Assembly (NCBI RefSeq): GCF_006345805.1
Contig: NC_043005.1
Location: forward strand, 97,526,001 to 97,590,000
Length of the DNA stretch: 64,000 nucleotides
Direction: 5' to 3'
Source of the DNA: Octopus sinensis
Lineage: Eukaryota
Shown here: piece by piece, positions 38,985 to 64,000 of the stretch
How the letters are laid out: every line of letters begins with the position of its first letter
Numbering within the stretch: position 1 is the first letter of the stretch
Made by a program: the position numbers and the translations under genes
The notes under the pieces: generated by a model
Database searches by the model: none
What the model saw: only the letters and a program-made list of their open reading frames with translations
Told to the model about the DNA's origin: nothing

Positions 38985-39040
38985 TCATCGGCTTATTGCA
39001 ACAAAATGGTGAGGAGCCAGGATCAAAGACAGAGAATTAC
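38985..39040 (-). CDS. DCAF15: DCAF15 terminal coding exon (GNSLSLILAPHHFVAISR*)
   Basis: ctctcag|GT ... TGA at 38985-38987. Confidence 0.88.
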
Positions 39041-42000
39041 CTGAGAGGGAAAAAAAAAACAAAAACAAGATAAAAAAAAATTAATAATGGAGTTGAAATA
39101 CAATAAAATAGACAATTCAGAATGATCTTTACATAAATTCTATCATATTAGTAATTTTGTAAAAGAGAGGAGAGATAAACAAACACAATAGCAATATCAA
39201 AAGGGAGGTTGTGTGGTTTTAATGCTAAATACCAACCATGTCTTGAAGGAATATGAGAAGACCAGATTAACTGTAAACAATTTTTTTTTAACTCTCCAAG
39301 ATTAAAGAATGAAAGTAAATTATGTGCTAAGTTATCCTTGCCTCTAAATTTGAGGTACCAATGTTACAAAAGTCAAATTAGAAGGCAACAGAAGCTGATT
39401 GTAATCTGTACAGAAAAGTGTATCTTTCAAAGCAGAGGGAAAGGGTTTGGGATGAATGGATGTATGATAGGTACTTACCCCTGATGACAGCCTCGTTTGT
39501 TAAGGTATAGACACTTTTGTAAAAGGACTGAGGCACAGCCAAAGCATGCTGCAGCCGGGTAACTTCACCATTTCCTGGGTTCCATTCTTTTCTAAACACA
39601 AAGAAAAAATCTACATGAGGATACTCAATTTTCAAAAACGTACACATGAATACATGTAGTTCAAAGTGGATGAATGAAATGGTTATGAAAGAATAAGTAG
39701 ACAATAAGTTGTAAAGAGACTGCGTGATTTACCTCAAGAGATCAGATTCATCTACTTCCACAAGGTCTTCAATGTGAAAAGTTGAATAGTTTCCTGACAA
39801 AAAAAAAAAAAAGTGGAAAAATAAGTTTTTAGTTAAAACCAAATATATAAAGTAATTTGATAAGATGGTGTTCCAAATATTATTGCTTAGAATAAATTAG
39901 TAAATAAAATAAAGAGTTATTACCTGTTAATAAACTCCAATTGAATGTGATACTGGTTTGATAGTACTGCTTTAGGATATTACTGAAGATGATAAAAACA
40001 GTTTAACATTTAGAAACACTTTTGAGGAGAGAATTTATTTTGAAAGAAACAAAGGATAAAAGACGAGCTTCTTGAGACTTCTGTAGTTGCTGCTCATTTC
40101 CTGCTTTTGCAGGCAGCTATGATCCAGAGAAGTGAAGCTTACAAGAAGTTACACTGAACAGTGTTTAATACAAGATGTGGTATGTGAAAAAGGAATGACA
40201 ACAACAAAGGTGATGCAGGGGCATCACCATCAGATGGGTTTCATTGCAAACCCATCAAATAGGTTTGATTCACTGGAACAGAATAAGCGACTGATAGATC
40301 AGATCAGATCATGTTTATTGTAGGCCATACATCGAAGTATTCATTGGGTTGAGAAGAAAAAAAGTTTATCAGTAATATTAAAAACAATTTCACACTGGCA
40401 CTTTATTAGATTATGACATATTATTATTTTATTTATTTCTGTTATTAGACTGTGGTCATGCTGGGGCACTGCCCCGACATTTTAGTCAGAAGAATTGACC
40501 CCAGTACTTAGTCTCTTTTGTTAAAGCGTGAAGTTATGGGGACACAAACATACCTACAACAGTTGTCAAGCAGTGATGGGGGACAAACACAGCTTTGGTT
40601 GGCCCGGGGTTAGACGACACTTGCCCAAGGTGCCATGCAGTGGAATCAAACCCAGAACAATGTGGTTGGGAAGTAAACTCCTTACCACAGCCACGCCTGC
40701 ATCTAATGAAAACATTTGTTAAGTCTTACCTTCGTTTGCAAGTTTTCTTTTCATTAAAATCTTTCCTTGCCTGGACTAAAGCAAACACCTTTGCTAGAAC
40801 CTCTCCACTTTCTGCATTGACCTAAAAATAAGACAACTTTGCAGTTATAGGTCACAGTATCAATGTGGACCACCGGCAATAATAAACGGAATAAAGCTAC
40901 TACAGTTGTTTTAATCAGAACATAAAAAGGAGCAATAAAATATATCCTGATTACTGTTCTAAACTATCTTTAATGTTTAATATACCCTTACAGCACCACA
41001 TACTAAAGCTGCATATTTTTATAAAACCACAACACATTGCAGTAATGTATCTGTTAACTCTGCTCTTTCAAATTCCTCTGACATGTACACACACACACAC
41101 ATATATATATATATACCATTACTGAAAAACGGTGACATGAAGTGTGTCCAGTTATAAAAATCCTGCTTCAGTTTTCTTTCATCCAAGCCAAGCATATGAA
41201 ACAAAGCACACACACACACACATTGAAATGCAATTTATATTTCCAAGTTTAGCGGAGGGAACGGTAGAAAGCTCATTATGTTTTATAGATGATGATGATG
41301 ATGATGATGTGTGTGGTGCTTTTATATTTATGGATTTTCACATTGATATTGTTCAGCTAAAGGCAATAATGACATATATAGGAAGATACTGATTTAACTT
41401 TGGTCAGGTGTAAGACTAGTTTTTGTTAAAAGGGAAAGAAAAAATCCTATTGAATTGATTTCAGTTGATTTGCCACCTTTTATTGAGTTGGTGGAGGGTT
41501 GGAGGCTAGAAAGGTAACGTCATTGACAAGATTTGCACTCAGAGGTATACAGAGTAATAAATCTACAGGGAAACTTTTACTCTTGACTTTGTTAATGAGG
41601 AGTCTCAAAGCAAATTCAGTTGTAATAGTTTATATAACCTTACTGGACCAACTTGCCACTACCTTGGCAAATGTGCATGGGTATATGCAGTGTGTATGTG
41701 TTTGTCTCTTAAACGCATACTAGTGTCACACAAGATGTATCTAGGTGTGTCATTGATTTTGAAAAGCACACTCATTAGGTATCGGAAAATGCTTACTAAT
41801 ACTTGAGTGTCTTGAAAAAAACAACAACATATTAATCATAATTTTATTATATATAAATATGATTACTAAAACATGGTACAGAAAAAATAACACATTTTAC
41901 ACAGAAAGTTAAAATCTTAAAAGAAATGTAGAAAGCTATTGTGTACATTGTTTTATTAATCATATTTGTGTATAATAAAATTATGAATAACAAGATGTTC

Positions 42001-45000
42001 TCAAGCATTAGTATATTTTTTTTTCTAAACGTTTTCAAGAAATGCACAACACACCTGGATGTTTTTTGTGAAACAATGAAATGCACCTTATGATGCAGTA
42101 GGCTTAATTTATTCCCAATGTGAAGTTAATATACACAAACAATGGAGAATTAATGAAGTGAGAAGCAAAACTGAATATGAGAAGAATCAGATATAGTGTG
42201 CAGGAGAGAAATTTGCTTTGGAAATGGACATATGATGCATATAGAGGCTGACATCTGTATAAAGCAGTCTTTATACAACAAAAATGGAACCTGTGGAAGA
42301 GAGAGAGAGAGACTAAGAAAGATTTCAGATGAAGTGATGAAGACTGCCGTCAAGAAGTTGCATCTGACATAAGAGACACAACAAAGGACCATGAGACAGG
42401 CAATAAACAATGATAGAAAAAATTTGGCCAGAGAAGACCTGTCCAGGATTGTTGGCATGGGGAACTGAAAGTGACAAGAACTGTGGTACTGATGTAGACA
42501 GAGAGGTATGATGATATTTCTCCACCCAGCCCACAACTGTGCCTGACACACCTGGACACCCTCTCATCCTCTTAGTGCCCTTATTTCTACCATTCAACCA
42601 TCTAAAATTCTATCTCTACCTCCACCCCTGTACCGTGTTATCCTTTTTCCTGACACCCTTCTCCATTTACTGACATGGACACCTTATTGACATCTTCACA
42701 CTCAACCTCTCCTGCCTCCATACACACTCATTTTCCCATCAGAATGCTGAGTAACCTCATCACTCATCGCCCTCATGACATGGTTATGATTCATGCCTCT
42801 ATCTACCTTATACTTTGCACCTATCCTTCTGTAAAGAGGCTGATGAGCAAGTGGACATGCGGTCAAGAGGTCCATTTTGGGCATATCATGGATATGACAA
42901 CCTCTCTAATGCTGATGCCATGAAAATATGCACCCAGAAAAGTGTAGTACTGAAAAGACACTTAAGTCTGGTCAAGGAAATGTCAATCCACTGGTGATGG
43001 TGACAGGAAAAAAAAACAAAAAAAAACCCCAGCATACAATACACACTGTAGAGTGGTTGGTGTCAGGAAGAGCACCCAGCCATATTGAAGTCAAACCTGA
43101 AATGCACAAGTGTGATTCAGTGCTCCAATCTGTCTATAAGCAGAACTGCTAAATGTGTGCTGACCCAGGCAATGACGATAATGATACAAATGCATGTGTG
43201 CACACAGTATTTGTCAGTCTTTGTTCTCTGAAAATTGCTGAGTCATGGGAAGTAACATAGCTAGTTTTATACCTTCAAAGGTGTGTGAAATAAGACACCC
43301 ATTATTTGAAAAACAGTTTAAGGGTGAGTGCCAGGAAGGGCACTTGGCTGTAAAAAAAAACATGTCTCATAAGATTGACTAACACCTTTGAGTGAATCCA
43401 CTGAAAGCATAAAAAATATTTTCAATTATAAATATCGTATGAAGTATTTTATTATTCAGAAGACAATTATATATTTATAAGATTCAGCTGTTTAACCCCC
43501 CCCCCCAAAAAAAAAATTCATCAAATTTATGAAATCTGGATACAAAACAACATAGCAATTTTTAAGTTACTATTTAAGTTTTTATTTTCCTTCTTCCCTT
43601 CATTTAATGATCAACTGTGATTGAGAACGTTTGTGCACCATATTTTGTGGCATACAAGTTGTAATATATTGTGTAAACATTCAATCGTTGTCACTATCAG
43701 GCTGCATTTCACATGGAATTTTCAGTCTTTTAAAGTTGTCTTGGGGTATAAGTTAACATACCGTTTTTGGTTGTAAATTTTTATTTGAAATCTTTGACAT
43801 GTATGCTGGAAAATAATGTATTTCTCTTAACACACACACACACGTATATATATATATAAAATGAATTAGAGATAAAACCACTATTAGGCAACTCAAACAG
43901 TGATAGACATAAACCAATACATAAATAACAAATAATATATATAATTAATATATATTAATAGTAGTTTTATCTCTAATTCATATTTTATATATTTATACTG
44001 TGAAATTTGATTTAATGCTAAATTGAATTTTTCCCTGTAAATTTGGAGTTTTACTCCCTAATATTATTATTATATATATATATACATGCACACAAACTGA
44101 GTCATTTTGATTACATATAATACATCAAAGACACTGATTTCATTGTGGATTACTGATTTTTCTGAACCAGAGGTGGTCACACCTCAAATTAAACAAGTAT
44201 TAATTTACTTAAATGGTGAAAGAACTTACATCGAGAAGCTGCAGGTCATAATTTAGAAATGCAATGTAGCGGTGTCCCCATTCTGCTACTGTGTGGATGA
44301 CCTCTTCTAAGAAGTGTTCAATATCCAAGGTCAACTGACAAACAGTGATGTGGTCACTCTGGACAGACAGAAAGTAAAGAGTCCATGGAGTTAAAAAAGT
44401 AAATAGAAAGAAACAGCATTTAGAACTGCAGAGACAATATATAATTCAAACAAGAACATAGCTGGTGGTATTGCTGATATGGAGCAATGTATAACAGGAA
44501 ATAACATAACAGAAGCTGTAGAGCAGGCATTCCTAACCCTGGGTACCCAACCCTGGAAATGAAAGACAGCCACAACGAAAAGGAAACTTTATTCAGTATA
44601 TCAAAAACTTTATCACATGTAGATTCAAATCATTAAGAGATCATGGGCCAAGAACTGTATCCTCATTCCATTTACAATGACTTGTGTCAATCTGGGATCA
44701 GTTCTCTTTTGTCATGACACAATCTAGGAATTTTCTGAATCCACAAGCAGACCTACAGGTCACAGTCATATTGAAGATTTCCTGTTTTGAATGAGAAGCA
44801 GGAACAAAGAGGCAGTTGAATTTTATATTCACACAGCTGAGGTAGATTTCACTATTTACAGTTCTCAGCTAATTGCTTAATATATACCTGCATTTTATGC
44901 ACTGAGTTAAAAGCTTGCTTTTTTGAGTTCAGTTTGTTTCCCCACATAATTGAATGTGGTTTGACTAAAAATAAAAGTAAATTAATTTTTTTGTTGGGGC

Positions 45001-45725: not shown

Positions 45726-48700
45726 GAGAGAGAGAAAGAGGCAGAGTATTCATCAATTTGTTCATAAAAAAAAAACTTCACACATGGCATGCACTGCAAT
45801 TATTCCATGCAGTAGATAATGTAAAATGTAATATACAGAAACTAAGAGATGAAAATGTTAAGAAGACAAAAACTTAAAAAAAAAAGTTTTCCATTTCTGA
45901 ACACCTGAAATAAGGAGTGATATAAAATTCACCTCAGATTTTGTGTATATGTACACATATATTTATAAATATGAAACATGCATGCACACATACACAAGTT
46001 TGACATCTTAAGATGTTTAAGAAGTATACTATTTAAAGTGCAGAGTTAAGTAGAAAGTCAAAAGACAAAAGTAACTGCTCCCTCAAATATTTCAAGGAAG
46101 GACAAGCTTTTTCTATGTTCTGAAGTGAGAGTTACTTAAAAAGAACAAAATGGTTAGAATAACATAGAGGCACTCACTTGGTCTGAATCCACATTAGACT
46201 TGGTAATGGACATCAATTTATGATCAGCACCTCGTACATCAAGAGGAAGAATACTGCGGTATGCTAGATCAAAATCATCTGCAAGAACAAAATATTGATA
46301 GATTTTTTTTCCAGTTTTTTTAAATGCAGAACATAAACTATTGATAAAAATCAATCAATCAACAAAAACAAATAAAAACTTCTGGTTGAGTAGTCACCAG
46401 GTCTATTCAGAAAGGATGGATGTTTATATAATAGATGTTACACTCATCTATTTTGCCTTGTAAGTACTCCACTCAATGACTTCTACCCTCTCCTAAAATG
46501 AGAGCAGTCACGTAGCTCCTCTACAGCAAGAAGCCTGTTCTGCTCTGGCCCCTTCTCTTTCATCCTTCATATCCTACCACTTTTATCAATCTTTTATCCC
46601 TCGTCTCCTACCATAAAGCAACCAGTAAACCCTCTGAGGTAGTTGGCGTTTGGAAGAGGGCAGCCTGCCACAGAAGCCATGCCAAAGCAGATACTTGAGC
46701 ACAGTACAGTCCATGGGCCCACAGCATCCTGTCAAATCATCCAACCCATGACATCATGAAACTGGGACATTAAATGACAATGATGAAGAAGTGCATCTAG
46801 GACCACNNNNNNNNNNNNNNNNNNNNNNNNNNNNNNNNNNNNNNNNNNNNNNNNNNNNNNNNNNNNNNNNNNNNNNNNNNNNNNNNNNNNNNNNNNNNNN
46901 NNNNNNAATACTGTTTTCATCATCATCATCATCATACATATATATATATATTATATTCTTTTACTTGTTTCAGTCATTAGACTGTGGCCATGCTGGGACA
47001 CCGCCTCGGCGAGTTTTTAATTGAATGTATCAATCTCAGTACTTACTTTCTAAAGTCTGGTACCAAATCTATCAGTCTCTTTTGCTGAACCGCTAAGTTA
47101 TAGGGACATAAACATATCAGCACTAGTTGTCAAGTGGTAGTGGGGGACACAAACACAAATACACATACAACAGGCTTCTTTCAGTTTCCGTTTACCCAAC
47201 CCACTCACAAGGCTTTGGTTAGCTCAAGGCTATTGTAGAAGACACTTGCCCAAGGTACCATGCAGTGGGACTGAACCCGGAACCATGTGGTTGCGAAGCA
47301 AGCTTCTTTTGTTTCTTGCCATTTTTTGCAGACATATAACATAATGTTTGGTGTCAGATGAAGGGTGCCTCTGTGCACTGGTCAACCATAGATGAATTCA
47401 TACAATTCTCCTTACCATATCATCATCTCTGTGTCATAATGGTTTGAAACAACAGAAACCAATATTAAGTGCTGAAGCAAATGGAACCAATATTAAACTT
47501 ATGCTATATTGATATCTTCATTATTGAGCATTGATCATGTTCCTACAGTCAGTCTTCGTTGTTGCCTGAATCTCCGGCCCCTCCCTTCGGTGCTTCTACA
47601 ATGGTGCTTAAGGTGGTTCGGTCATGCGGCCCGGTGTCCAGAGGGTGAGCTGATTCGCGATGTCCTCCTCCCACCTCCACTTCCCAGCTGGCGCAAACAC
47701 AGGGGCGGGCAGCTGAACACCTGGGCAACAACGATAAAGGAGGACCTCTCCGAACTCTCAGTTCCGCAGGTGGTCGGTCTGTGCAGATGGAACCACGAAT
47801 GGCTTGCTATCTCCAGTGACCTCGCTCAGGATCGTTGAGTGTGGGCCGCCATGGTTCGTGATGCCGTCAGGACCAGAGAAGAAGCCCGCTTAATCCACCC
47901 TGGGTGAACTCCGTCACAAGTAAGTAAAATATCTTCATCATCTTATCCCTTAACTTTCTAATTCTCTCTCTCACCCCATCCCACCAATATATAAAAAGGT
48001 TATCTCTGGATGAATATACAGTAAATTTGCCTTTTAATGATGAATTAAGATTGTGATACATAAGATGGCTATTTCAATTTAATACAGCTTCTATTGCATA
48101 TAACGGATTTTTACTCAGCCACACAGCTATTTGAAATATCAGTGAACATTTTGTTCACTGTTTCCTATACACCAAAGGCAAAAAATCCCCACCAGACATG
48201 TGACTAGCTGTGAGTACATGCCACTGATAAGGCCCGACGAAGCCAAACACAACATATCCATAAGCTATGTTATGAATACCACAGTAATTTTGTTTTTCAA
48301 TGTTTTATGTTGAATATGATACATAGATGGCTCTTTCATTTCAATACTGCTTCAAGTGCATGTAACAAATTACACAGTGCAAAGCTGATAACCTGATTAT
48401 CTTCTGAGACACGAAGGACAAACCTAATGATGACGTGCGTGTGTTATTGGTATGAAAGACATATTTTGCTCTATGAGGACAAATAATACCTGAAATGTCA
48501 ATCTCCATCATTCCACAGCACACTAAACAAATGAAGATTTGTGAACTCTGCTTTATGCCAACTATTACTAAATTCTTAGAAATATATCAAGTTTTCATCT
48601 TTTCGTCTTTTTCATGTAGAGATAAGTAGAAGACATGCATATATTTATATAGGTGTATGATTGTGTATCTGTGGCTGTTTTTGTGTGTTTGCACTTGTGT

Positions 48701-54171: not shown

Positions 54172-57100
54172 CTCAGAGTAAATGTTCAGAATATCAGTAC
54201 GAAAAGAAAAACCAGTCTATTGAGAAACATTGAACCAAGTTTCCATCAGTTGCAGGCATAATATCAAATGTCTTAACAGGATTTTATATTACAAATCTCA
54301 GCAGTTAATTCATAATTAAAAACAATAATAATAATATAAATCGAAGTTGATTATCAAAATACATATTTCCAATATATTACATTGAGGCCTAGGAAACACG
54401 TGGAAAACACACCACAATCTGGCTTATCAACTACAACACCAAGATATTTAATGATGCCTTTGTATGTTTTATTACAGAGTGATAGTAATAAATCTTAATA
54501 CAACTTATTGATTTCGAAGTGACTAGATTAATGATAGATTGCTACAGGTCTCTCATATTTGGAAATTACATTTTCTTGGAGAGATTTGAGAACAAATTTA
54601 CGTCTCAACACTATATTGACAAATTCTGCAATGAATGCTGCCAAACGTAATAAACTACTAGCTATTAATTATCATTATTTCAAGGAGGTATTACAATATA
54701 ATTTGAAAAACAATATTAAATTACAATTATAATATAATTACTGAGGGCTATGATCAGTCAGAATACAAACAAATAAAATAGATGGTTGCTAATGTATTAG
54801 TAGCAAATTTTGTGCTTGAACTATTTTAACCTTTTTGTAAATTGCAAAGCTAATGATGTTAGGATGTATCGATGTAAAAATTACAGCATGGCAAGTAATG
54901 GACATAGCTACCTGCCTGTCATGTACATGACTACTATTCTAGTGCTGATGCCAAGAGAAACCATACCTAGTACACTGTGTTGAGAGGACCCTTTAGTTTT
55001 GTCTAGAATATGACAACCTTTTAACTGCTGGTACCATGTAAAAAAAGCACCAAATGCACTCTGTAAAGTGATGGATGTTAGAAAGGGCATCCAACCAAAA
55101 ATGAAACTCTTGAATGGAATGTAATCCTCCAATTCTCAAACGTGTGTTAATTTGATCATGGTGACCCATGCTACGATGGGAAGTGAGCATAAAATGATAT
55201 GATCATAATGATAATATGGATTCTGTGTGATTTAGTGGGGTTATACTGTAACCAAAGAAAATATCAACTGAAGACATTGGTGGGGTTATGCTGTTACTAA
55301 AGGAAGCATCAACAAGAGACAGTGTAGGCATTTTTTAACGAAGAAGCACTGACTTTAAGGTATCAGGATTTAGATTGTTTGAATGCTTAGTCTCCCTATG
55401 GATACAATACAGCACTTGCTGGATGCTCTCTCAACAACTAAGCTCTGAAGAAGTTTAAAGCATGCTTAAATTTCTACAATATAAATGTTCATTTACTATT
55501 AAAGTTGTTTTTTCATTTTTGTATTGTTTCCTTTAAAAATAGATCTAGTTTATAACTCATTTACCTACACACACAGCGAAAACTGAAATGGAACACGGAA
55601 AAGATTGAAAGGAAGCAGGCAAACTACACAGAACACCTCTTGTCAGCCAAGAATACCAAAATCCAGTTTCTGCATATTTAGAGTCTGTCATATATGACCA
55701 CACACACACATGTATATAGATACATGTTTGGGTGTACAAATGGAAGTAAAAGTACTGCACGGGTTTATTTGTTTATATGAAGCAGATACATTTTTTAAAA
55801 ATTTGTTTTACCAGAACATGTATATATATATCATCATCATCATCCTCGTTTAACGTCCGCTTTCCATGCTAGCATGGGTTGGACGGTTTTGACTGAGGGC
55901 TGGCAAACCAGATGGCTGCACCAGGCTCCAGTCTTGATCTGGCAGAGTTTCTACAGCTGGATGCCCTTCCTAATGCCAACCACTCCGAGAGTGTAGTGGA
56001 TGCTTTTTACATTCCACCTGCACGGGGGCCAGTCAGGCGGTTCATTCACATCATCGTTTAACATCCATTTTCCATGCTAGCATGGGTTGGATGGTTCGAC
56101 CAGGGTCTGATCTAGCAGTGTTTCTACAGCTGGATGCCCTTCCTAACGCCAACCACTCAGAGTGTAGTGGGTGCTTTTTACGTACCAGGCGAAGCTGGCA
56201 ACAGCCACGATCGGTCGGTGCTTTTTATGTGCACTTTTCTACTCTAGGAACAAGGCCCAAAATTATGGGGGAGTGGGCCAGCCAATTAGACCAGGCAACA
56301 GTATGCCTGTTGTTAGTGGTAGGTAAAAAGAAACTGCAGGGCAACACAAGGTATGTAAAAATATTGGAATTTCGAAGCAATTGCAATCAACCACTTTTCG
56401 ATGGCACACTCAGATTCAGTAGTCATCATCATCATCATCATCATTAATGTCTGTTTTCCATGCTGGTATGGGTTGGATGGTTTGAACAGACCTGGTAAGG
56501 CCAGGGGCCATACCAAGCTCCCTTGTCCGTTCTTGTATGGTTTCTACAGCTGGAAGCCCTTCCTAATGCCAACCACTCCACAGAGTGTACAGAGTGCTCT
56601 TTATGTGACACTAGCACCAGTGCTTTTAACATGGCACCAGCACTGGTACCAATTCTGTTGTGGCAGACAGGTCTTACTTAAAAATGAAAAAATAAAAAAT
56701 TGAATTATGTTGTTTGAGCATCTTGACTTCTAAATTTCATCAACAAATTATACAAATCTACTGTTTTATAGCAGCCAATCATTTTACGCTGTATTCGTCA
56801 CAACAGGATGTGACAACACAGAAGGGGGGTACCACCTTCAGAGATTACATTAACGCTCTCCCCAATACTTGACTGGTGGCTAGTTTATTGATCCAGCAAA
56901 GTCAAACTAAGTGGAGGAAGATCTGAACATAGAATTTTATGCAAAACCACATATTTGGTTTCTGGCTCAACAAATAGATCCCTGATGTGACACCACTATA
57001 CTAATGAAGGCTGTTTATAAACAAATTTAAATATCAGCATAATGCTGTTAGCTACACAATCAGAAAGGAGGAAATGGAATCTGTTGTCAAGTATGCAGAC

Positions 57101-60100
57101 ATGAGACAGGTTGAGTTAATGGTCAATGGTCCATTATCTCCATTTCAGAACCATTGTGCTTGTCCAAGACTAGAGCTCAAACATTCAAGCAAAGAAAGAC
57201 TTCATTGATTTAGAGAGGAAACTTGCTCCTTGTCAATAGTGTACAAGTTTAACAGGAGAAATATTATGGACACTTACCTTCATTTAGTAAAATGTTTTCC
57301 CTGCTGCTGTCTTCAAGATATGTAAATTTCCTCATGGAGAAAGACATTGACCGAGATTCATTGATGTGTAAATAGACTGGGAGGTTTTCGTTGCTGTTTT
57401 GCGTGGCACTACTGCCACTGTTACTATTGGGGGAAAAGAAGGGCTGCTGGGATATGTTGTTTGATGGAGATAAAGGTTGACTGGTAGATTCCACAATATT
57501 TTCTTTTGTATCAGAGTCACTGGTAGCATTGCAATAGCACTTAGAGTGGTGACTGACCACACTAGAAGCAGTGCCATTCTTCTTTGAACACCGACACTCC
57601 TCCAGTACATTCAGTTTGGAACTACGCTGAAAAACTGTAGGGGGCGGTGCTGGTGGTGGCGATGTTGCATCTGACTTTGCTGTGTCCACAATGACGCAAC
57701 AACTGGAGCAGCTGTTGCGCTGCTTCACCATGCGGCACCATTTGCTATTGCTATCACTCAGTCTGGTATGAAGATCACAGCAGCTAGAAGTAGGGGGAGG
57801 TGGAGGAGGAGGAGGAGGAGAGAAGTTTGTAGCAAGATGATGGTGGTTGTGGTGGAGGTGGCTGTTGTGGAGATGGTGGTGGTGGTGGAGGTGGTGATGG
57901 TGATGACAAGAGGAGGTAGAAGTAAGAGTTCTATCACAGACAGTGCAGCAGGATTGCTTCATGCATCGGTTAGTAGAATCATCGCCACCCCCACTACTGT
58001 TATTCAGAGATGGAGGACAAGAGTTCTCACAGTTGCAGTTCCAACAGTAGCCAGAGGTCTTACTGTGTCGGCAGCAGGTGTTGGTAGTGGACTCACCGCA
58101 GCATGCTGAGCAGCAAGTGTATTGCTCCAAAGTGTCAGCATTGGATGGATTGACTGAGTGAAGTCGAGTTCTTTGGCAGCACTTTGTTACATTGCTGGCT
58201 GTTGTGCTGTTGGTTGTATTTGTGCAGCTGGTTGATGTCATGTTGTTGGTGGCTGCAGTGTTATTGGTGTTTAAACTATTGGAAACGCCTGTTATTGATA
58301 CACTAGTGCTCGATGGTTTGTTTGATTGCAATCCTTTCGGATTGTTCTTACCCCAGCAATCTTCATCCGACTCGGCAGCCGAATCGGACGAGCCTGTTGG
58401 GGATCCCCTGAAGTCATAGTATCCATTAATGAGGTGGTGGTAAGCTTCAGCTCGGTTACCACTACCATCAACCCCTGAGTTAGCTGAGGCAGGGTTGGTG
58501 CTGCCACAGCTGAATAGTCTTTTACATTCATCCACAGAGTTGCTTGCCTTGTTACACTGTGTTACAGGTTGGTTGATACGGAAGTCGAGAGCAACCAAAG
58601 AGTCACCTGTGTTAAGAACCACCATTCCGTCCATTTTGAGCTGGATTTGTGGAATAAATGCTGGAAATGGTGGAGCCAGTTCATACTTGCTGTAGATACA
58701 AAAACTGTGTTTAACACACATAACTTTCTTTTTGCGTTTTGTACCTGAAAGATAGAATGGATACAAGTTAATAAAACCAAGACATGTAACTTCCTAACTG
58801 AAATAATTTCCCATTTACAACATTTAGTTCAGGCTTTCATGCTTCTAGATTGCAAACCTGCTAGGAACTGACATTAGTTTTCATTATTCCAGTGACAAAT
58901 TATTCACCGTTTATGTATGAGTACACACCTGCACTTCAATATGGGTTCTCAAATTTGGCATAATGCACAAAAAAAGGAGGAAGGTGAGACAAAAGTATTT
59001 GTCATTTCAATTTTATTTCTTCTATAACACTGAGGCCTGTTTAAACTGTTAATATCTATTATATATATAGTGAAATGTTATGAAAGTTTTTTGAGATAAG
59101 AAATGATAGACTCACAAAATTATGTCCAGAATAATGTTTAATAAGGCACATTAGAGGAGAAAATGAATTCATGTTCATAATTAAAATAATATCCACTGAG
59201 AGTTGATAAAAGAAAAACAAACAAACTAAAAAAATAGAGTTCAGGTCCATATAGTTAGTATTGTTATGGTTATCATTTTCCTACTAACAAAAAAAAAAAA
59301 AAAAAAAACAAACACAATAATCAAACAAGTTCTCATAATGTAGCACCAGATAGGATTTGTAGAAGTCATGTTCATAAGCCACTCGATAACTGGAGACTAC
59401 AAGAATTCAAAGCAGGATACACTGAGATCCAAGCCAAACATTTTACCTGTTTTATGTTAAAACTGTCCAGATCCAACTTCTCATACCTACCCGACTCTAA
59501 AAATATATAAACACACCATTGACATTGTGAAGCTATACGATCAATCATGAGCAATTCAAAACTGTGTGAATAAATAAGAAATCTGAATGTTAAAGGGTTA
59601 AGCAATGAACTTTTGAATGCGTATTTCTTCAAGTTTCGTAGGATGAGTCAGACTGGTATGCAGTATGGTATGTTTATGTATTATTCTGTTATTTTGCCTG
59701 AGAGGTCAACATTTTGAAACCTGACTTTACTACAACATTCTTTGAAGTTTATAAGGCATTTGTAATCATCCATTCAAAATCCAATGCTGCTTAGTGAATT
59801 GTACCTCTAATTATTTACAGCTGGATGAAATGGGTATATTGAAAATTAAATGTCCTTGCTCAAAATATACAATATTAGGCACATGGTTTAAGCTTAATAA
59901 CTCGGTTTTGGTCAGCTGTAATAATAGGGTGTATAAGTTGTAACCACAAAACTGATGTATGTTTCAAAATTATTTCAAAACCACAGAAAAAGTTAAGAAT
60001 AATAACGATAATAAAAAAAAAGTTTTCATATTTATGATGCAATTAGGTTTCATAAGGTCTTTCCAAACTATGTAATTATAAAATTTATTGTATTTCTTAT

Positions 60101-61487
60101 ACACGTGTATAAATTATATACACACAGCACTGTCATCATCATCACAACCACCTTCCTCCTCACACTCTACTCTTTGTTTGCTTAGAGGTGAAGCCTGCCC
60201 AATAGCGACCACATGGTCACTGGTGTGCATGCATGCATGGCCACTGGTGAAGTTGTGCATTGTAACAGGTGAAAAGTTCTTCAGAGATATTTTGTCAATT
60301 TCAATGTATTGACTCTCAGCATCAACAGGAAGTAGAAAGGAAGAATTTGAGGGTCTATTTTCAAGACTGAAGACTGCTGCTTCCATTACAATGTTCAGTC
60401 TGTTGATGTGTTCTGAGTCCCAAATGCAACCAAGATGAACTATTGAGTCAATTAAATAAATTGACAGTGATGATGGCAGACGGATTCAATCAGCTCAGTC
60501 CTTCCTCTACAAAATAATTTAATGTCTACACATTAGATAAAATATTTGCAGCTGCAAGACAATGACTAATGAATTACTTTCAGGGAAAATTCTTTAGGGA
60601 GAGCAAGAGAAAAGTCATCATACATTTAGGTTCTTTTAAAATACCATCATGACCAAAACCATTTCCCTTTCAACCGACTTCACTAAAAGTGATACCTGTC
60701 ACTGATATTCACATACATTGTTTTTTGTAGATGTAGGGTTTTCTTTTAACAGAAAGTGAAACTACAGCCAAAAGTCAAAAGCTGGTAAATTAGAAATTGG
60801 GCCTCAGATGACCCAAGGGCAGCTGTATGGGAAAATAGACATGGAAAATAACTTTATTGTTATTGGTCTCAAACTCTTAGTTGTATTAAATATGTTATAT
60901 AATGCTTATCTTGACTTTTAAGATTAACACACAATTCTCCATTATCTGCTTAAATAAAGATTTGCATTAAAATAAAGAACCATTTTCATCAACAGTGCAA
61001 TAATAATTAGTTTTCACAACTGGTATCAGTGACTTAATGGTTGAAAAGATAACACATTGGACTACAGACTCTTCTTGCAACCACATTACTCTCATTGCCT
61101 CAGTCTGTCACACTAGCAAAATTTAGCACTTATATTTTAGAAGTAATTTGAAAGTGGCAGAAAGAGCAAACAATATTAGGGAGGAAAAAAAAACTGCCCA
61201 TCATAAAATATGCTACTGTCAAAGAGTGTGCAAACAATCACACAACACAAGCTTATAACAAAAAGAAAGAAAAAAACTGAATAAGTAAGAATTGGAAAAA
61301 AAAAGTGTTTTTGATGACAATCATGAGGATGATTATTATTACTCTGCCCCACCCCCTCCAAAAAATGTAAACATACTTACAGGAAGAATTGGATTCACTA
61401 ATATAACAATCTTTGCAAGCATTGAGAGGTGGCACTGCAGTTATAGTTATGAAACACTGGCTGCCTTCTTCTCGACTTCTTGGAACA
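38985..61487 (-). CDS. DCAF15: DDB1- and CUL4-associated factor 15, 5'-partial; complement join(61381-61487,57278-58744,46178-46278,44230-44358,40730-40821,39924-39982,39733-39793,39479-39591,38985-39040)
   Basis: Exons join in frame. Motifs ITAVPPLNACKDC, CVKHSF..SKYELAPPFP.F.PQIQLK.DG.VVLNTGDSLVA, TVCQLTLDIE..WGH...YD, YQTS...W.L.TG and LTNEAVIRGNSL match DCAF15 (recalled human sequence). Confidence 0.9.
39479..39591 (-). CDS. DCAF15: DCAF15 exon (KEWNPG...LTNEAVIR)
   Basis: gtttag|A ... G|gtaagt, 113 nt, phase 2-1. Confidence 0.9.
39733..39793 (-). CDS. DCAF15: DCAF15 exon (GNYSTFHIEDLVEVDESDLL)
   Basis: ttgtcag|GA ... AG|gtaaat, 61 nt, phase 1-2. Confidence 0.87.
39924..39982 (-). CDS. 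DCAF15: DCAF15 exon (NILKQYYQTSITFNWSLLT)
   Basis: cttcag|T ... G|gtaata, 59 nt, phase 2-1. Confidence 0.87.
40435..40700 (-). mobile_element. SINE family 1 abutting a DCAF15 donor site
   Basis: cacttgcccaaggtgccatgcagtgg...cttaccacagccacgcctgc. Confidence 0.75.
40730..40821 (-). CDS. DCAF15: DCAF15 exon (VNAESGEVLAKVFALVQARK...)
   Basis: ttttag|GTC ... AG|gtaaga, 92 nt, phase 0-2. Confidence 0.85.
42140..42470 (+). mobile_element. RTE-type LINE 3' fragment
   Basis: Degenerate RREICFGNGH and GTCGR..R.RK motifs, same family as 12590. Confidence 0.5.
43854..43992. repeat. ~33-bp inverted repeat with ~70-nt loop inside a (TA)n-flanked element
   Basis: ATATAAAATGAATTAGAGATAAAACCACTATTA versus TAATAGTAGTTTTATCTCTAATTCATATTTTATAT. 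Confidence 0.9.
44230..44358 (-). CDS. DCAF15: DCAF15 exon (SDHITVCQLTLDIE...LQLLD)
   Basis: gtccag|AGT ... GAT|gtaagt, 129 nt, phase 0-0. Confidence 0.92.
45646..45740. repeat. (AG)n microsatellite
   Basis: Directly visible. Confidence 0.95.
46178..46278 (-). CDS. DCAF15: DCAF15 exon (DDFDLAYRSILPLDVRG...DSDQ)
   Basis: cttgcag|AT ... CAA|gtgagt, 101 nt, phase 1-0. Confidence 0.85.
46807..46906. other. Assembly gap (100 N)
   Basis: Run of N flanked by repeat tails; true size unknown. Confidence 0.99.
46955..47310 (-). mobile_element. SINE family 1, full length
   Basis: Reverse complement of 31790-32160. Confidence 0.85.
47520..47925 (+). mobile_element. RTE-type LINE 3' end (GC-rich)
   Basis: LRWFGHAAR...RGGQLNTWATTIKEDL...DLAQDR*VWAAMVRDA; CAAGTAAGTAA tail. 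Confidence 0.85.
49010..50161 (+). mobile_element. R4/Dong-clade non-LTR retrotransposon relic (RLE type)
   Basis: WLKKGTLKKETESTILAVQDQAL, HDEVVKVLHWKLC, KILWDFPIQTD, PIIVGSLGTV, LQKVCLLGTARII; ends in (AAT)n. Confidence 0.82.
50163..50366 (-). mobile_element. SINE family 2
   Basis: tgaaaggtaaagttgaccttggc..tgaactcag..tctgccagct. Confidence 0.75.
50770..50880 (+). mobile_element. Possible piggyBac transposase C-terminal Cys-rich remnant
   Basis: WLCSKCEKELCLVRAN peptide only; short and decayed. Confidence 0.3.
51174..51381 (+). mobile_element. piggyBac-type MITE (TTAA-CCCTTT...AAAG(T/G)G-TTAA)
   Basis: TTAA at both ends, short TIR; further copies at 52038-52165 and about 59435-59601 in the opposite orientation. 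Confidence 0.75.
52038..52165 (-). mobile_element. piggyBac-type MITE, internally deleted
   Basis: Ends TCTGAATGCCAAAAGGGTTAA; reverse complement of the 51174 copy. Confidence 0.7.
55831..56650 (-). mobile_element. Three tandem copies of repeat family 3 (about 55831, 56048, 56422)
   Basis: Each begins with (CAT)n and carries ttccatgct.g.atgggttgga and tttctacagctgga.gcccttcctaa. Confidence 0.85.
57278..58744 (-). CDS. DCAF15: DCAF15 giant exon, 1467 nt
   Basis: ctttcag|GT ... G|gtaagt, phase 1-1, inside the 500-aa ORF 57264-58766. Confidence 0.9.
59435..59601 (-). mobile_element. piggyBac-type MITE copy
   Basis: Ends AATCTGAATGTTAAAGGGTTAA. Confidence 0.65.
61381..61487 (-). CDS. DCAF15: DCAF15 exon (VPRSREEGSQCFITITAVPPLNACKDC...)
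   Basis: minus strand tctttag|T ... T|gtaagt, 107 nt, phase 2-1; first CxxC of the zinc site. Confidence 0.88.
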
Positions 61488-64000
61488 CTAAAGACAGAAA
61501 ACAGCAAAATTTATAAAGAAAATTAAAAAAAATTAAGCAAGAAAGACCTCACCACCACCACCATCATTTCAGAAGAAAAAGCTATTTCGGAAATAAAATA
61601 AATATCAGAATGTCTACAGAATGTTTGGAGCATGAGAAATTTGTTTTAATTTGATAAGTGTGTCACTAAATAGACAATGGAGCTCATATTGAACAGATTT
61701 TTAAATATATCTAGTGAGCAAGCGATAGCAACACCATTCCTATAGCATGGTGCGAAAAGCCAGATCAATATTTCCATTCAACTTTCTACACTCCAATACA
61801 AAAGAAAGCAAGAACATCATTAATAACGAGACTAACAATTCTATAGTAATAAATGTCGTTCTTGGACTGGATTCACTATTATACAGATTTAAGTCACCTG
61901 ATCAACATTTGCATTTTATTTCTATACTAAATAACATTGCATTTCAATAAAGAAAGAAAGAGGGTGGGGGGAACCCCAAAATTTCCATAAGAAATTCCAC
62001 TGAAATGTTAAGTGTTTTAAAATAAAATTCATTAAACTACCACATGACCCTCTCACTTTCAACGAATGTCTGCATACATACTACAACCAGGACTTTGCAT
62101 CATTTAACTAGGAGAGAGAGAGAGAGAGAGAGAGAAACAAGTATGGTTCTACAATGCCAAATGCTACATTCATCTGTTGCTCTATTAGACATGCAAGGTT
62201 TATGAAAGACCTGTTTTACATGGAAAGATACCTTTGCCAAAAACTCAAGAAAACAACACCAAAAAACACACAACACAGTTAAGTTCCCTCTGGTGTGCGA
62301 CTTCCTTTACTGCTGCTGTAACAGACCAACAGGGACAGTTGGAATTTATGACCTTCACATGAACAGCTTATGCTAATTCCTATATATTTAATATACATCC
62401 TCATGTTGGTGGCTGCGAAGAAGAAGAAGAAGCAAGCAGTAGATGAAGAAAAAGAACAAAATGAGAAAGAAGAAGAAAGGAAAAAAAGAATCAAAATCAA
62501 AATCAGAAGAAAACACTAGTAGACAGCTGCCAGTTAATGTAGAGTAGCACTGATATTGATCAATTCCATGAGGTAGAAAGAACAAATTATATTACATTAA
62601 AAAAAAGAAAAAGTGTTTCCAGTCAGTAAAGAGAAAATATTGTAGATTGTTATTAAACACACACACACACACACATTGCAGTAAAACTTCCCGATGTCTG
62701 TTATGTTTATTGCCTTACAGTCATTACTTTCCTTGAGTCAACAACAAGGGAACTGCTATGTCGTCACTCAACAGTCTAGAAATAACAGCCAATTTTTCCT
62801 CAAATCACATCTGACCATCTTAAGAAAAGAAAAGATTCTTTTCACAAAGACTCCCAAGAGATTCATGAAGCCAGAATGGCTTCTGCCTGAACACCTTTTG
62901 TTACAAGATCGATTATTTTCTCAAGAACAATTATATTCAAAATATAAATATTAAGGATCTCTCTTTATAAGCGATGATGCTCAGCTAAGCATATTTTCTA
63001 CAAGTGCTGTTTTCCTGATTTTTGAGTCCAACTGACACTGAGGGGTTATAGCTGAGCTAGACAATAGTATCAGAATGCTGACCTTATAGGTCAATGTTTT
63101 ATATCATAGTATTGACAATGTATTGTCAGTTTCTTCACCGACCACTAAGATGGCTTTGTCTCAAGGCTACCACCAGAGTATTTAGCATCTCAAACCCTAT
63201 AGTGGATAGCTTCCACTTCTCCATTAATTTTTCCCCTACATTTACCTATCCAAATTACACCAGCTGGAAAATGCAGTTTCAAAACAAGAAATCTATTGTT
63301 TTATGATCATTTAAGTCACCAGCGAAATTTGTTACTGGGCAAAATTTGAAATATTTCCCACTATATCAATGCGGGAGGTCATAACACCACATGATCTTGT
63401 TGAGCCTACCTCCACCCATTCATATCTTCTGATCTTCTTCGTTCTGGGAACATCCTCTTTTGCTTTCTTTATTACTAAGATTTAGTGTTTTTAATTGGAG
63501 AAAGAAATTTCGTGTCAGCTCCAATCTTAGCAGATTTCAGACAAATGACTAGCCTATCCAGTGCATAATGCCAATCCCACTTTGTTGTCCTGTAAAGATA
63601 CACTATTTTTATCACTTTATATTTGTAAGCAACCGGAGTTATATATCCAACAAACACTTCATTGGGCTGTAGTGTCAAGATTTAATTTTCCTGTGAATAT
63701 CAAAAGAATACACTCAACTCTGCCGTAAAAGTAGTGGCGGTGGTGGTGCTGCTGCTGTTGTTGTTAAGCAACAAGACGGGTAAGGGTGATTAGGTGATCG
63801 TCTAGGGCTTAGGGGCAGGAGACCCCAGACCTTAGGAAAAAAACAACTTTGGTCGTCTTGTTGTAGTCGAGGGCTCTTCGTTGACGCCCGACACCACTGG
63901 GAGGTGGCCCTCGAAGTCGCTGGAAATGGAGATCTCCAGGTCCAAATTCTTGAACGGTTGCTGCTGCTGCTGTAACCAAATGGGATATGAAGTTCCCCTT

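What the first reader, a model, noticed from the sequence alone, without database searches (positions are those of the whole stretch)
57278..58570. DCAF15 carries a ~430-aa Cys/His/Pro-rich insertion: a candidate metal-binding or condensate-targeting module on a ubiquitin-ligase receptor
Seen: after the conserved LNTGDSLVALDF the frame stays open to the end of a 1467-nt exon. It holds about 32 Cys including seven CC pairs (CCSACC, CWNCNCENSC, CCTVC, CSSCC, CRC, CYC), 17 His in 23 residues (about 57838-57905), a P9 run and N/T/S tracts. Recalled: human DCAF15 has a much shorter disordered linker here, without such Cys clusters. Established: CC/CxC clusters are metallothionein-like ligands, and His repeats can direct proteins to nuclear speckles. 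Inference: a lineage-specific module that might make CRL4-DCAF15 metal- or redox-responsive or relocalise it. Neutral low-complexity expansion, common in octopus proteins, is the null explanation.
Basis: partly seen in the sequence, partly recalled or inferred. Interest (0 to 1): 0.72.

Follow-up and report, generated by a model that had tools for sequence, protein, structure and literature searches.

The report
Expanded DCAF15 partner-binding loop in octopus
This is the internal loop of the octopus protein-degradation receptor DCAF15, kept whole in spliced transcripts and long as in many invertebrates; it is predicted to be disordered and likely works as a docking arm, with short motifs that may bind cohesin and time the protein's destruction, and cysteine clusters that may bind zinc loosely.

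Summary
In detail: one 1467-nt exon of octopus DCAF15 holds 32 Cys, 7 CC pairs, 17 His in 23 residues and a P9 run, and spliced contigs include it whole. It is not a separate inserted domain. It is DCAF15's internal loop, which in human binds cohesin (PMC11222469). Long loops are usual outside vertebrates: median 354 aa in 62 other orthologs, against 468 here and about 183 in human. AlphaFold gives no fold; Pfam finds no metallothionein or zinc finger. The Cys are under selection against a distant unnamed cephalopod (28 of 32 kept, other residues 54%), but Argonauta lost 7 of 28 shared Cys, so a fixed metal site is doubtful. The loop lacks the vertebrate SMC1A-binding helix. It carries a KEN motif (19 of 62 other loops, 4.5 expected) and a CTCF-like YxF motif kept in 3 of 3 cephalopods; YxF enrichment elsewhere comes mostly from one arthropod-like clade. 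Best reading: a constrained, disordered docking arm with lineage-specific motifs. Binding, metal and localisation are untested.

The parts
57278..58744 (-). DCAF15 coding exon, 1467 nt, included whole
58581..58744 (-). End of the folded N-terminal domain (PF14939), with the conserved CxxH at 58707-58718
57402..58562 (-). Internal loop, predicted disordered (pLDDT under 50, coil); counterpart of human residues ~272-385
58350..58430 (-). Conserved block with YxF motif (YYDF at 58410-58421), an SP site and an acidic patch; candidate cohesin-docking motif
58149..58172 (-). D-box-like RxxLxxxN; Leu is Phe in the distant cephalopod; weak candidate
57531..58184 (-). Cys-rich core, 217 aa with 27 Cys (CC, CxC, CCxxC clusters)
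57837..57905 (-). His tract, 17 His in 23 residues, CAC/CAT codons
57792..57818 (-). Pro run (9); 2 residues shorter in O. bimaculoides
57498..57506 (-). KEN motif, kept in 3 of 3 cephalopod orthologs; candidate APC/C degron
57278..57452 (-). Mollusc-conserved tail; its last ~40 codons form strands of the folded core
61378..61490 (-). Upstream DCAF15 exon (carries the conserved CxxC)
46178..46278 (-). Downstream DCAF15 exon
44228..44358 (-). Downstream DCAF15 exon (start of C-terminal domain)
38985..40821 (-). Further C-terminal exons and the stop codon (boundaries approximate; one small exon not placed exactly)

Best explanation
The stretch is the expanded internal loop of octopus DCAF15, included whole in spliced transcripts, predicted to be disordered, and likely a flexible docking arm under selection rather than a folded metal-binding domain. 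The folded core would bind DDB1 as in human (inferred from the fold). The loop likely engages partners through short motifs: a YxF motif that may dock on the STAG-RAD21 surface of cohesin in place of the vertebrate SMC1A-binding helix, which is absent, and a KEN motif that would let APC/C time DCAF15's own turnover. The Cys clusters and His tract are cephalopod additions, likely born by repeat slippage and then kept; they would bind zinc or other soft metals loosely and redundantly, since single ligands can be lost. Shown: identity, inclusion, composition, conservation pattern, absence of the helix. Predicted: disorder. Inferred: every binding step.
For: Identity and fold: (Foldseek E 5e-29 to human DCAF15). 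Inclusion. Disorder: residues 242-626 of the O. bimaculoides protein at pLDDT under 50 while the core is at 70-98; the human loop is disordered too (10.1101/737510). Function of the human loop: residues 274-382 necessary and sufficient for SMC1A/SMC3 pull-down (PMC11222469). Constraint: 163 of 374 loop residues identical in 3 cephalopods; Cys 28/32 vs 217/402, 23/25 vs 106/194 in gap-free context, equal-rate simulation mean 18, max 27 in 500; in 8 of 15 non-cephalopod pairs Cys were kept less often than other residues, so the excess is not automatic. KEN: 19 of 62 loops vs 4.5 shuffled (max 10 in 500), the five permutations 1-8, 14 of 29 vs 1.4 after removing three clades. YxF: 23 of 54 vs 7.8 (max 15 in 300), control patterns FxY, YxY, YF, YxxF, YxxxF not enriched. 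Other clades have their own conserved loop motifs. Vertebrate helix profile finds 6 vertebrate-like rows and nothing else under E 6 among 105 proteins.
Against: No binding, metal or localisation experiment. YxF enrichment rests on one arthropod-like clade (15 of 16); outside it 8 of 38 vs 4.6 (68 of 1000 shuffles reach it), and 5 of 29 vs 2.7 without the Styela clade. The octopus YxF is not followed at once by acidic residues as the arthropod-like and bivalve-like ones are. A YxF arises in 8.6% and a KEN in 5.2% of shuffles of the octopus loop. Both motifs were picked after looking at the sequences. 43 of 62 loops lack KEN, including all 8 vertebrate-like rows, and KEN positions do not align across phyla. 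Orthologs are related, so counts are not independent. Only three distinct cephalopod orthologs were found, one unnamed. In 7 of 15 control pairs Cys were also kept more than other residues. The human loop binds the SMC1A head, not STAG-RAD21.
Confidence: 0.55

Rival explanations
1. The Cys core is a true cephalopod zinc-binding (or redox-sensing) module that folds on metal binding and controls substrate choice.
For: 21 Cys are identical in all three cephalopods, in CC, CxxC, CCxxC and CxC settings; Cys excess over background; highest local Cys density of 64 loops, 17 in 100 aa; other clades keep their own Cys motifs in this loop (CxYCG in the Styela clade, CPYH...CTC in the Asterias clade); CxC in 24 of 38 loops vs 10.9.
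Against: Argonauta, 98% identical in the folded domains, lost 7 of 28 shared Cys, four of them by deletion of whole CC pairs and one more by deletion, at the rate of other shared residues (40 of 182; p=0.81). Cys only 12.4% of the core. No Pfam family over cut-off in the loop. No fold in two AlphaFold runs, though these lack metal and have only three close rows. The distant ortholog has a run of six Cys, which looks like slippage.
Confidence: 0.2
2. The loop is a tolerated low-complexity expansion; His, Pro and Cys runs come from microsatellite slippage and do nothing specific.
For: The human loop can be cut out with DDB1 and glue-mediated RBM39 binding kept (10.1101/738534). Long loops are common. 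Eight other (CAY)5+ runs lie elsewhere in this window. Six of seven CC pairs are TGC-TGC. The His/Pro region differs by one codon between runs (129 vs 126 letters). The loop changes about ten times faster than the core between Octopus and Argonauta.
Against: 60% loop identity with an ortholog whose core is only 80-86% identical; Cys, Phe (8/8) and the YxF and KEN blocks are kept while S/T/N tracts drift. The human loop has a published binding function.
Confidence: 0.15
3. The His tract is the functional addition and targets octopus DCAF15 to nuclear speckles, near splicing factors.
For: His tract in 3 of 3 cephalopods (longest runs 5 here, 11, 10 and 6), 19 of 25 His kept in the distant ortholog. 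His repeats direct human proteins to speckles (PMC2644819, abstract).
Against: Shown only in human cells; 15 of 22 proteins tested there localised. In this genome the run is broken by Leu into two runs of five, under the six named as sufficient in that paper's section heading. CAT/CAC repeats are common in this window. It can be true together with the best explanation.
Confidence: 0.08
4. The CC pairs are S-acylation sites that tether the ligase to membranes.
For: Dicysteine pairs in disordered regions are typical palmitoylation sites (own knowledge); redundancy would explain the losses in Argonauta.
Against: Human DCAF15 acts on chromatin-bound cohesin; the loop has few hydrophobic residues (13 aromatic in 374); CC is not enriched in other orthologs (13 of 62 vs 17.9).
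Confidence: 0.02

Closest known systems
Human DCAF15 internal loop (residues 274-382; PMC11222469)
   Same: Same position between the two halves of the fold; disordered; one gene; core superposes on human structures.
   Different: About 285 aa longer; no SMC1A-binding helix; has KEN, YxF, Cys clusters and a His tract that 8 vertebrate-like rows lack or nearly lack.
YxF motifs of CTCF and SGO1 that bind the SA2-SCC1 surface of cohesin (PMC10279526)
   Same: Y-x-F in a disordered region of a protein already tied to cohesin; the genome encodes STAG SCD exons.
   Different: Binding untested; octopus motif lacks immediately following acidic residues; it sits on a ubiquitin-ligase receptor.
APC/C KEN-box degron (PMC9289945)
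   Same: KEN in a disordered loop, one per loop, enriched across several phyla, with a D-box-like motif upstream.
   Different: Degradation untested; absent from vertebrate-like and most arthropod-like rows.
Metallothioneins
   Same: CC, CxC and CxxC motifs, few aromatic residues.
   Different: Cys are 7% of the loop and 12% of its core, spread over 217+ residues inside a larger protein; no Pfam match; ligands are lost in a close relative.
Poly-His nuclear speckle signal (PMC2644819)
   Same: His runs of five or more in a presumably nuclear protein.
   Different: Interrupted run in this genome; never tested in molluscs here.

Membership tests
DCAF15 | PF14939 domain over the curated cut-off | tested here: met
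   46 bits on the exon (cut-off 23.9); 204.6 bits on the full O. bimaculoides protein
DCAF15 | N- and C-terminal halves matching human DCAF15 in sequence and fold | tested here: met
   phmmer E 1e-56, two stretches; Foldseek E 5e-29, TM 0.81 by target
DCAF15 | Binds DDB1/DDA1 in CRL4 | not testable with these tools
   inferred from the fold only
DCAF15 vertebrate SMC1A-binding loop | Amphipathic helix like human 315-337 | tested here: not met
   profile from 6 vertebrate-like rows hits no cephalopod or other invertebrate row among 105 proteins; no helix in the modelled loop
Metallothionein | Small protein or domain with about 20-30% Cys (recalled) | tested here: not met
   32/434 overall, 27/217 in the core, at most 17 in any 100 residues
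Metallothionein | Match to a metallothionein profile | tested here: not met
   none in Pfam at E up to 1 or up to 10
Metallothionein | Metal-thiolate clusters | not testable with these tools
   needs ICP-MS and spectroscopy
Folded zinc finger or zinc ribbon | Invariant, fixed-spaced ligands and a compact fold | tested here: inconclusive
   21 Cys invariant in 3 cephalopods, 7 of 28 lost in Argonauta; no fold predicted, but without metal and with a shallow alignment
Cohesin CES-binding YxF motif | YxF in a disordered region, conserved in orthologs | tested here: met
   YDF, YDF, YNF in the 3 cephalopods inside a conserved block
Cohesin CES-binding YxF motif | Acidic residues directly after the motif (recalled preference) | tested here: not met
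   RGSP follows; the acidic patch starts about 8 residues on
Cohesin CES-binding YxF motif | Direct binding to STAG-RAD21 | not tested
APC/C KEN box | KEN in a disordered region, conserved or recurrent in orthologs | tested here: met
   3 of 3 cephalopods; 19 of 62 others vs 4.5
APC/C KEN box | Cdh1/Cdc20-dependent degradation lost on mutation | not testable with these tools
   bench assay
Poly-His speckle signal | Run of five or more His | tested here: met
   two runs of 5 here; 11, 10 and 6 in the orthologs
Poly-His speckle signal | Speckle localisation lost on deleting the run | not testable with these tools
   bench assay

The most novel reading that the evidence does not exclude
DCAF15's loop is an ancient cohesin-docking arm that switched grips: invertebrates (arthropods with a tandem pair, bivalves, cephalopods) use a CTCF-like YxF motif on the STAG-RAD21 surface, vertebrates replaced it with a RAD21-mimicking helix on SMC1A; a KEN box puts the ligase under APC/C timing, and cephalopods added a zinc/His segment that tunes the arm.
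Probability: 0.2. Interest if true: 0.7.

Novelty: new variant of a known kind. Interest (0 to 1): 0.42.

Why it matters
DCAF15 is a drug-recruited ligase receptor whose natural job is only now emerging (cohesin control). If invertebrate loops dock on cohesin by YxF, the link is conserved across bilaterians though the interface changed, DCAF15 would compete with CTCF, WAPL and shugoshin for one pocket, and short peptides make this directly testable. A KEN box would tie one ubiquitin ligase to another in the cell cycle. The Cys/His segment alone is of modest interest unless it proves to bind metal in a defined way.

Tried and rejected
Exon skipping or internal splicing: none seen in 7 transcript-like runs; contigs drop rare forms and 37 weaker joints were not shown, so minor isoforms are not excluded. 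No run was on record as RNA; the GT-AG joints are what mark them as transcripts. Assembly artefact: rejected, a genomic-type run covers the exon and both flanks (X15). Paralog or donor of the insert in the own genome: 1 full match (itself) and 7 partial matches at 35-57% identity centred on the His/Pro stretch, 150 of 8938 candidates scored. More cephalopod orthologs: three capped searches gave only O. bimaculoides, Argonauta and one unnamed cluster (empty). ESM Atlas on two loop pieces: no usable hit, no evidence either way. AlphaFold on the exon alone: pLDDT 29, uninformative. General D-box enrichment: RxxL 42 of 62 vs 40, not enriched; the stricter form 15 of 62 vs 6.8 (max 14), weak. CC pairs as a family trait: rejected (13 of 62 vs 17.9). 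DCAF15 in the supplements of an APC/C substrate screen: 0 of 7 files (PMC7758050). dN/dS: not possible, no DNA of distant cephalopods was held. Complex prediction: not run, no whole cohesin subunit was held. Earlier findings of this scan: none. The + strand ORF 57675-58109 is the shadow of the repeats and was not pursued.

Full report
Observation. The minus strand holds a 1467-nt exon, 57278-58744, with one open frame. The start of the exon matches PF14939 and the whole exon is 98% identical to Octopus bimaculoides DCAF15, so the window is from an octopus. The family has 2 exon-level matches in the own genome, both on this contig and strand. The other exons were mapped by tblastn.

Expression. 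Contigs of 7 of 7 transcript-like runs (6 coded studies) cover the exon from end to end with no internal joint. In one search all 4 runs join it to the exons at 46178-46278 and 61378-61490 with GT-AG ends; in two runs a single contig spans four exons. The tool skipped 57782-57910 as a repeat, but record coordinates give 129 letters there in three runs and 126 in four: a one-codon length difference in the His/Pro tract. The runs are only guessed to be RNA and contigs drop rare forms.

What it is. Aligned to human DCAF15, the stretch lies between the two halves of the fold. Human residues 272-385 are disordered (10.1101/737510, passages), and a split protein without 265-382 was crystallised with DDB1 and RBM39 (10.1101/738534, passages). 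An AlphaFold model of the O. bimaculoides protein on 56 sequences has a confident core and pLDDT under 50 with no secondary structure over 242-626; it matches human DCAF15 structures. The last ~40 codons of the exon belong to the core. Anchor to anchor the span is 468 aa, against about 183 in human.

Is the length special? No. Of 105 proteins of 400 aa or more held after, 68 had both anchors (37 dropped); 6 were cephalopod rows, 62 others. Their median span is 354 aa; 22 of 62 reach 400 and 12 of 62 reach 460. Named examples include Ylistrum 400, Diadema 480, Tachypleus 453, Styela 400 and Lottia 178. Their Cys share has a median of 3.1% and a maximum of 7.1%, against 6.8% here; Tachypleus has 25 Cys. 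The His run is found only in the cephalopod rows.

Are the Cys kept? O. bimaculoides keeps 32 of 32 but also 98% of everything. An unnamed ortholog (P0002), sister to Octopus plus Argonauta in the tree with support 100/100 and so inferred to be a more distant cephalopod, keeps 28 of 32 Cys against 217 of 402 other residues (p=1.5e-4). This holds in gap-free context, with a lowered Cys score (27 of 32) and against an equal-rate simulation (max 27 in 500). In 8 of 15 control pairs from other clades Cys were kept less often than other residues, in 7 more often. Against this, Argonauta, 98% identical in the core, keeps 23 of 32, the background rate, and lost 7 of the 28 shared Cys (other shared residues 40 of 182). 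The Argonauta loop changed faster overall (20 derived sites against 10 in the core). So there is selection on Cys, but single ligands are dispensable. Pfam finds no metallothionein or zinc finger in the loop.

What the loop does elsewhere. In human cells the loop, residues 274-382, is necessary and sufficient to pull down SMC1A and SMC3, with a predicted helix at 315-337 on the SMC1A head (PMC11222469, passages and section 8; its supplementary figure 3d was not seen). That helix is conserved in 6 of 8 vertebrate-like rows and is found in no invertebrate row. Each clade instead has its own conserved loop motifs.

Motifs in the octopus loop. (a) KEN at 57498-57506, in 3 of 3 cephalopods and in 19 of 62 other loops (shuffle mean 4.5, max 10 in 500), more than any permutation of the three letters (1-8) and ninth of 5158 tripeptides under a dipeptide-based expectation; 14 of 29 vs 1.4 after removing the vertebrate-like, Pollicipes and Styela clades. 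KEN is an APC/C degron (PMC9289945, passages). (b) YxF at 58410-58421, in a block conserved in 3 of 3 cephalopods within the least conserved third of the loop. YxF motifs of CTCF and SGO1 bind the SA2-SCC1 surface of cohesin (PMC10279526, passages; CTCF's YDF is named in the abstract of 10.1101/2025.01.26.634934, listing only). YxF occurs in 23 of 54 non-vertebrate loops vs 7.8 and in 0 of 7 vertebrate-like loops, with five control patterns flat. But 15 of the 23 are one arthropod-like clade with a tandem pair; outside it the excess is not significant (8 of 38 vs 4.6), and only the form followed by acidic residues, which octopus does not have, passes (5 of 38 vs 1.3; 2 of 29 without the Styela clade). 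Both motifs were chosen after inspection, and related sequences are not independent.

Mechanism. Shown: gene, exon inclusion, composition, conservation pattern. Predicted: disorder. Inferred: a flexible arm that brings CRL4-DCAF15 to cohesin or other partners by short motifs, is itself turned over by APC/C, and in cephalopods carries redundant Cys/His ligands that arose by slippage (6 of 7 CC pairs are TGC-TGC; 8 other CAY runs in the window) and bind metal loosely. I put this at 0.55, a true folded metal module at 0.2, neutral expansion at 0.15, speckle targeting as the main function at 0.08 (PMC2644819, abstract and outline).

Novelty. No paper in the library holds both DCAF15 and YxF or DCAF15 and KEN box; none of the 20 and 15 papers listed mentions DCAF15; subscription journals are not covered. 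PMC9975947 (passages) gave nothing relevant. The metallothionein Cys range, the acidic preference after YxF, palmitoylation of CC pairs and the zinc role of the core CxxC/CxxH are recalled, not from a call. The finding is a new variant of a known protein region; the Cys/His segment is real but less special than scored, and the KEN and YxF motifs are the better leads.

Noticed in passing
L007 (G000:C19:16342344-16342637, minus strand): The STAG (SCD domain) gene has two near-identical tandem copies of one exon, each with its own AG and GT ends, separated by a 38-nt gap, likely too short to splice: candidate mutually exclusive exons in the region that forms the cohesin CES surface.
   Followed up: partly
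L009 (G000:C9310:33686-33811) and G000:C9766:27424-27549: A second, more divergent SCD-domain exon on two small contigs with equal scores: a STAG paralog or duplicated assembly.
   Followed up: no
P0028, P0032, P0037, P0046 and relatives (not in the window): Arthropod-like DCAF15 loops hold a strongly conserved ~45-residue module: two YEF-acidic motifs around a basic stretch (15 of 16 rows with YxF); a faint look-alike in a tunicate-like row (E 0.35).
   Followed up: partly
Styela clade (P0050-P0064) and Asterias clade (P0020-P0038): Clade-specific conserved Cys motifs in the same loop (CxYCG; CPYH with CTC), possible small zinc sites.
   Followed up: partly
window 61378-61490 and 58707-58718: Core CxxC and CxxH align with human and are at least 90% conserved for three of the four positions in 56 orthologs: a likely structural zinc site just before the loop.
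   Followed up: partly
window 55830-56640 and 46900-47300: Copies of a very abundant, highly covered short interspersed repeat with CAT-repeat ends inside DCAF15 introns.
   Followed up: no
window 58263: A single-letter difference (A to G on the + strand) in runs X15, X16 and X19, present in a genomic-type run too, so an allele rather than editing.
   Followed up: partly
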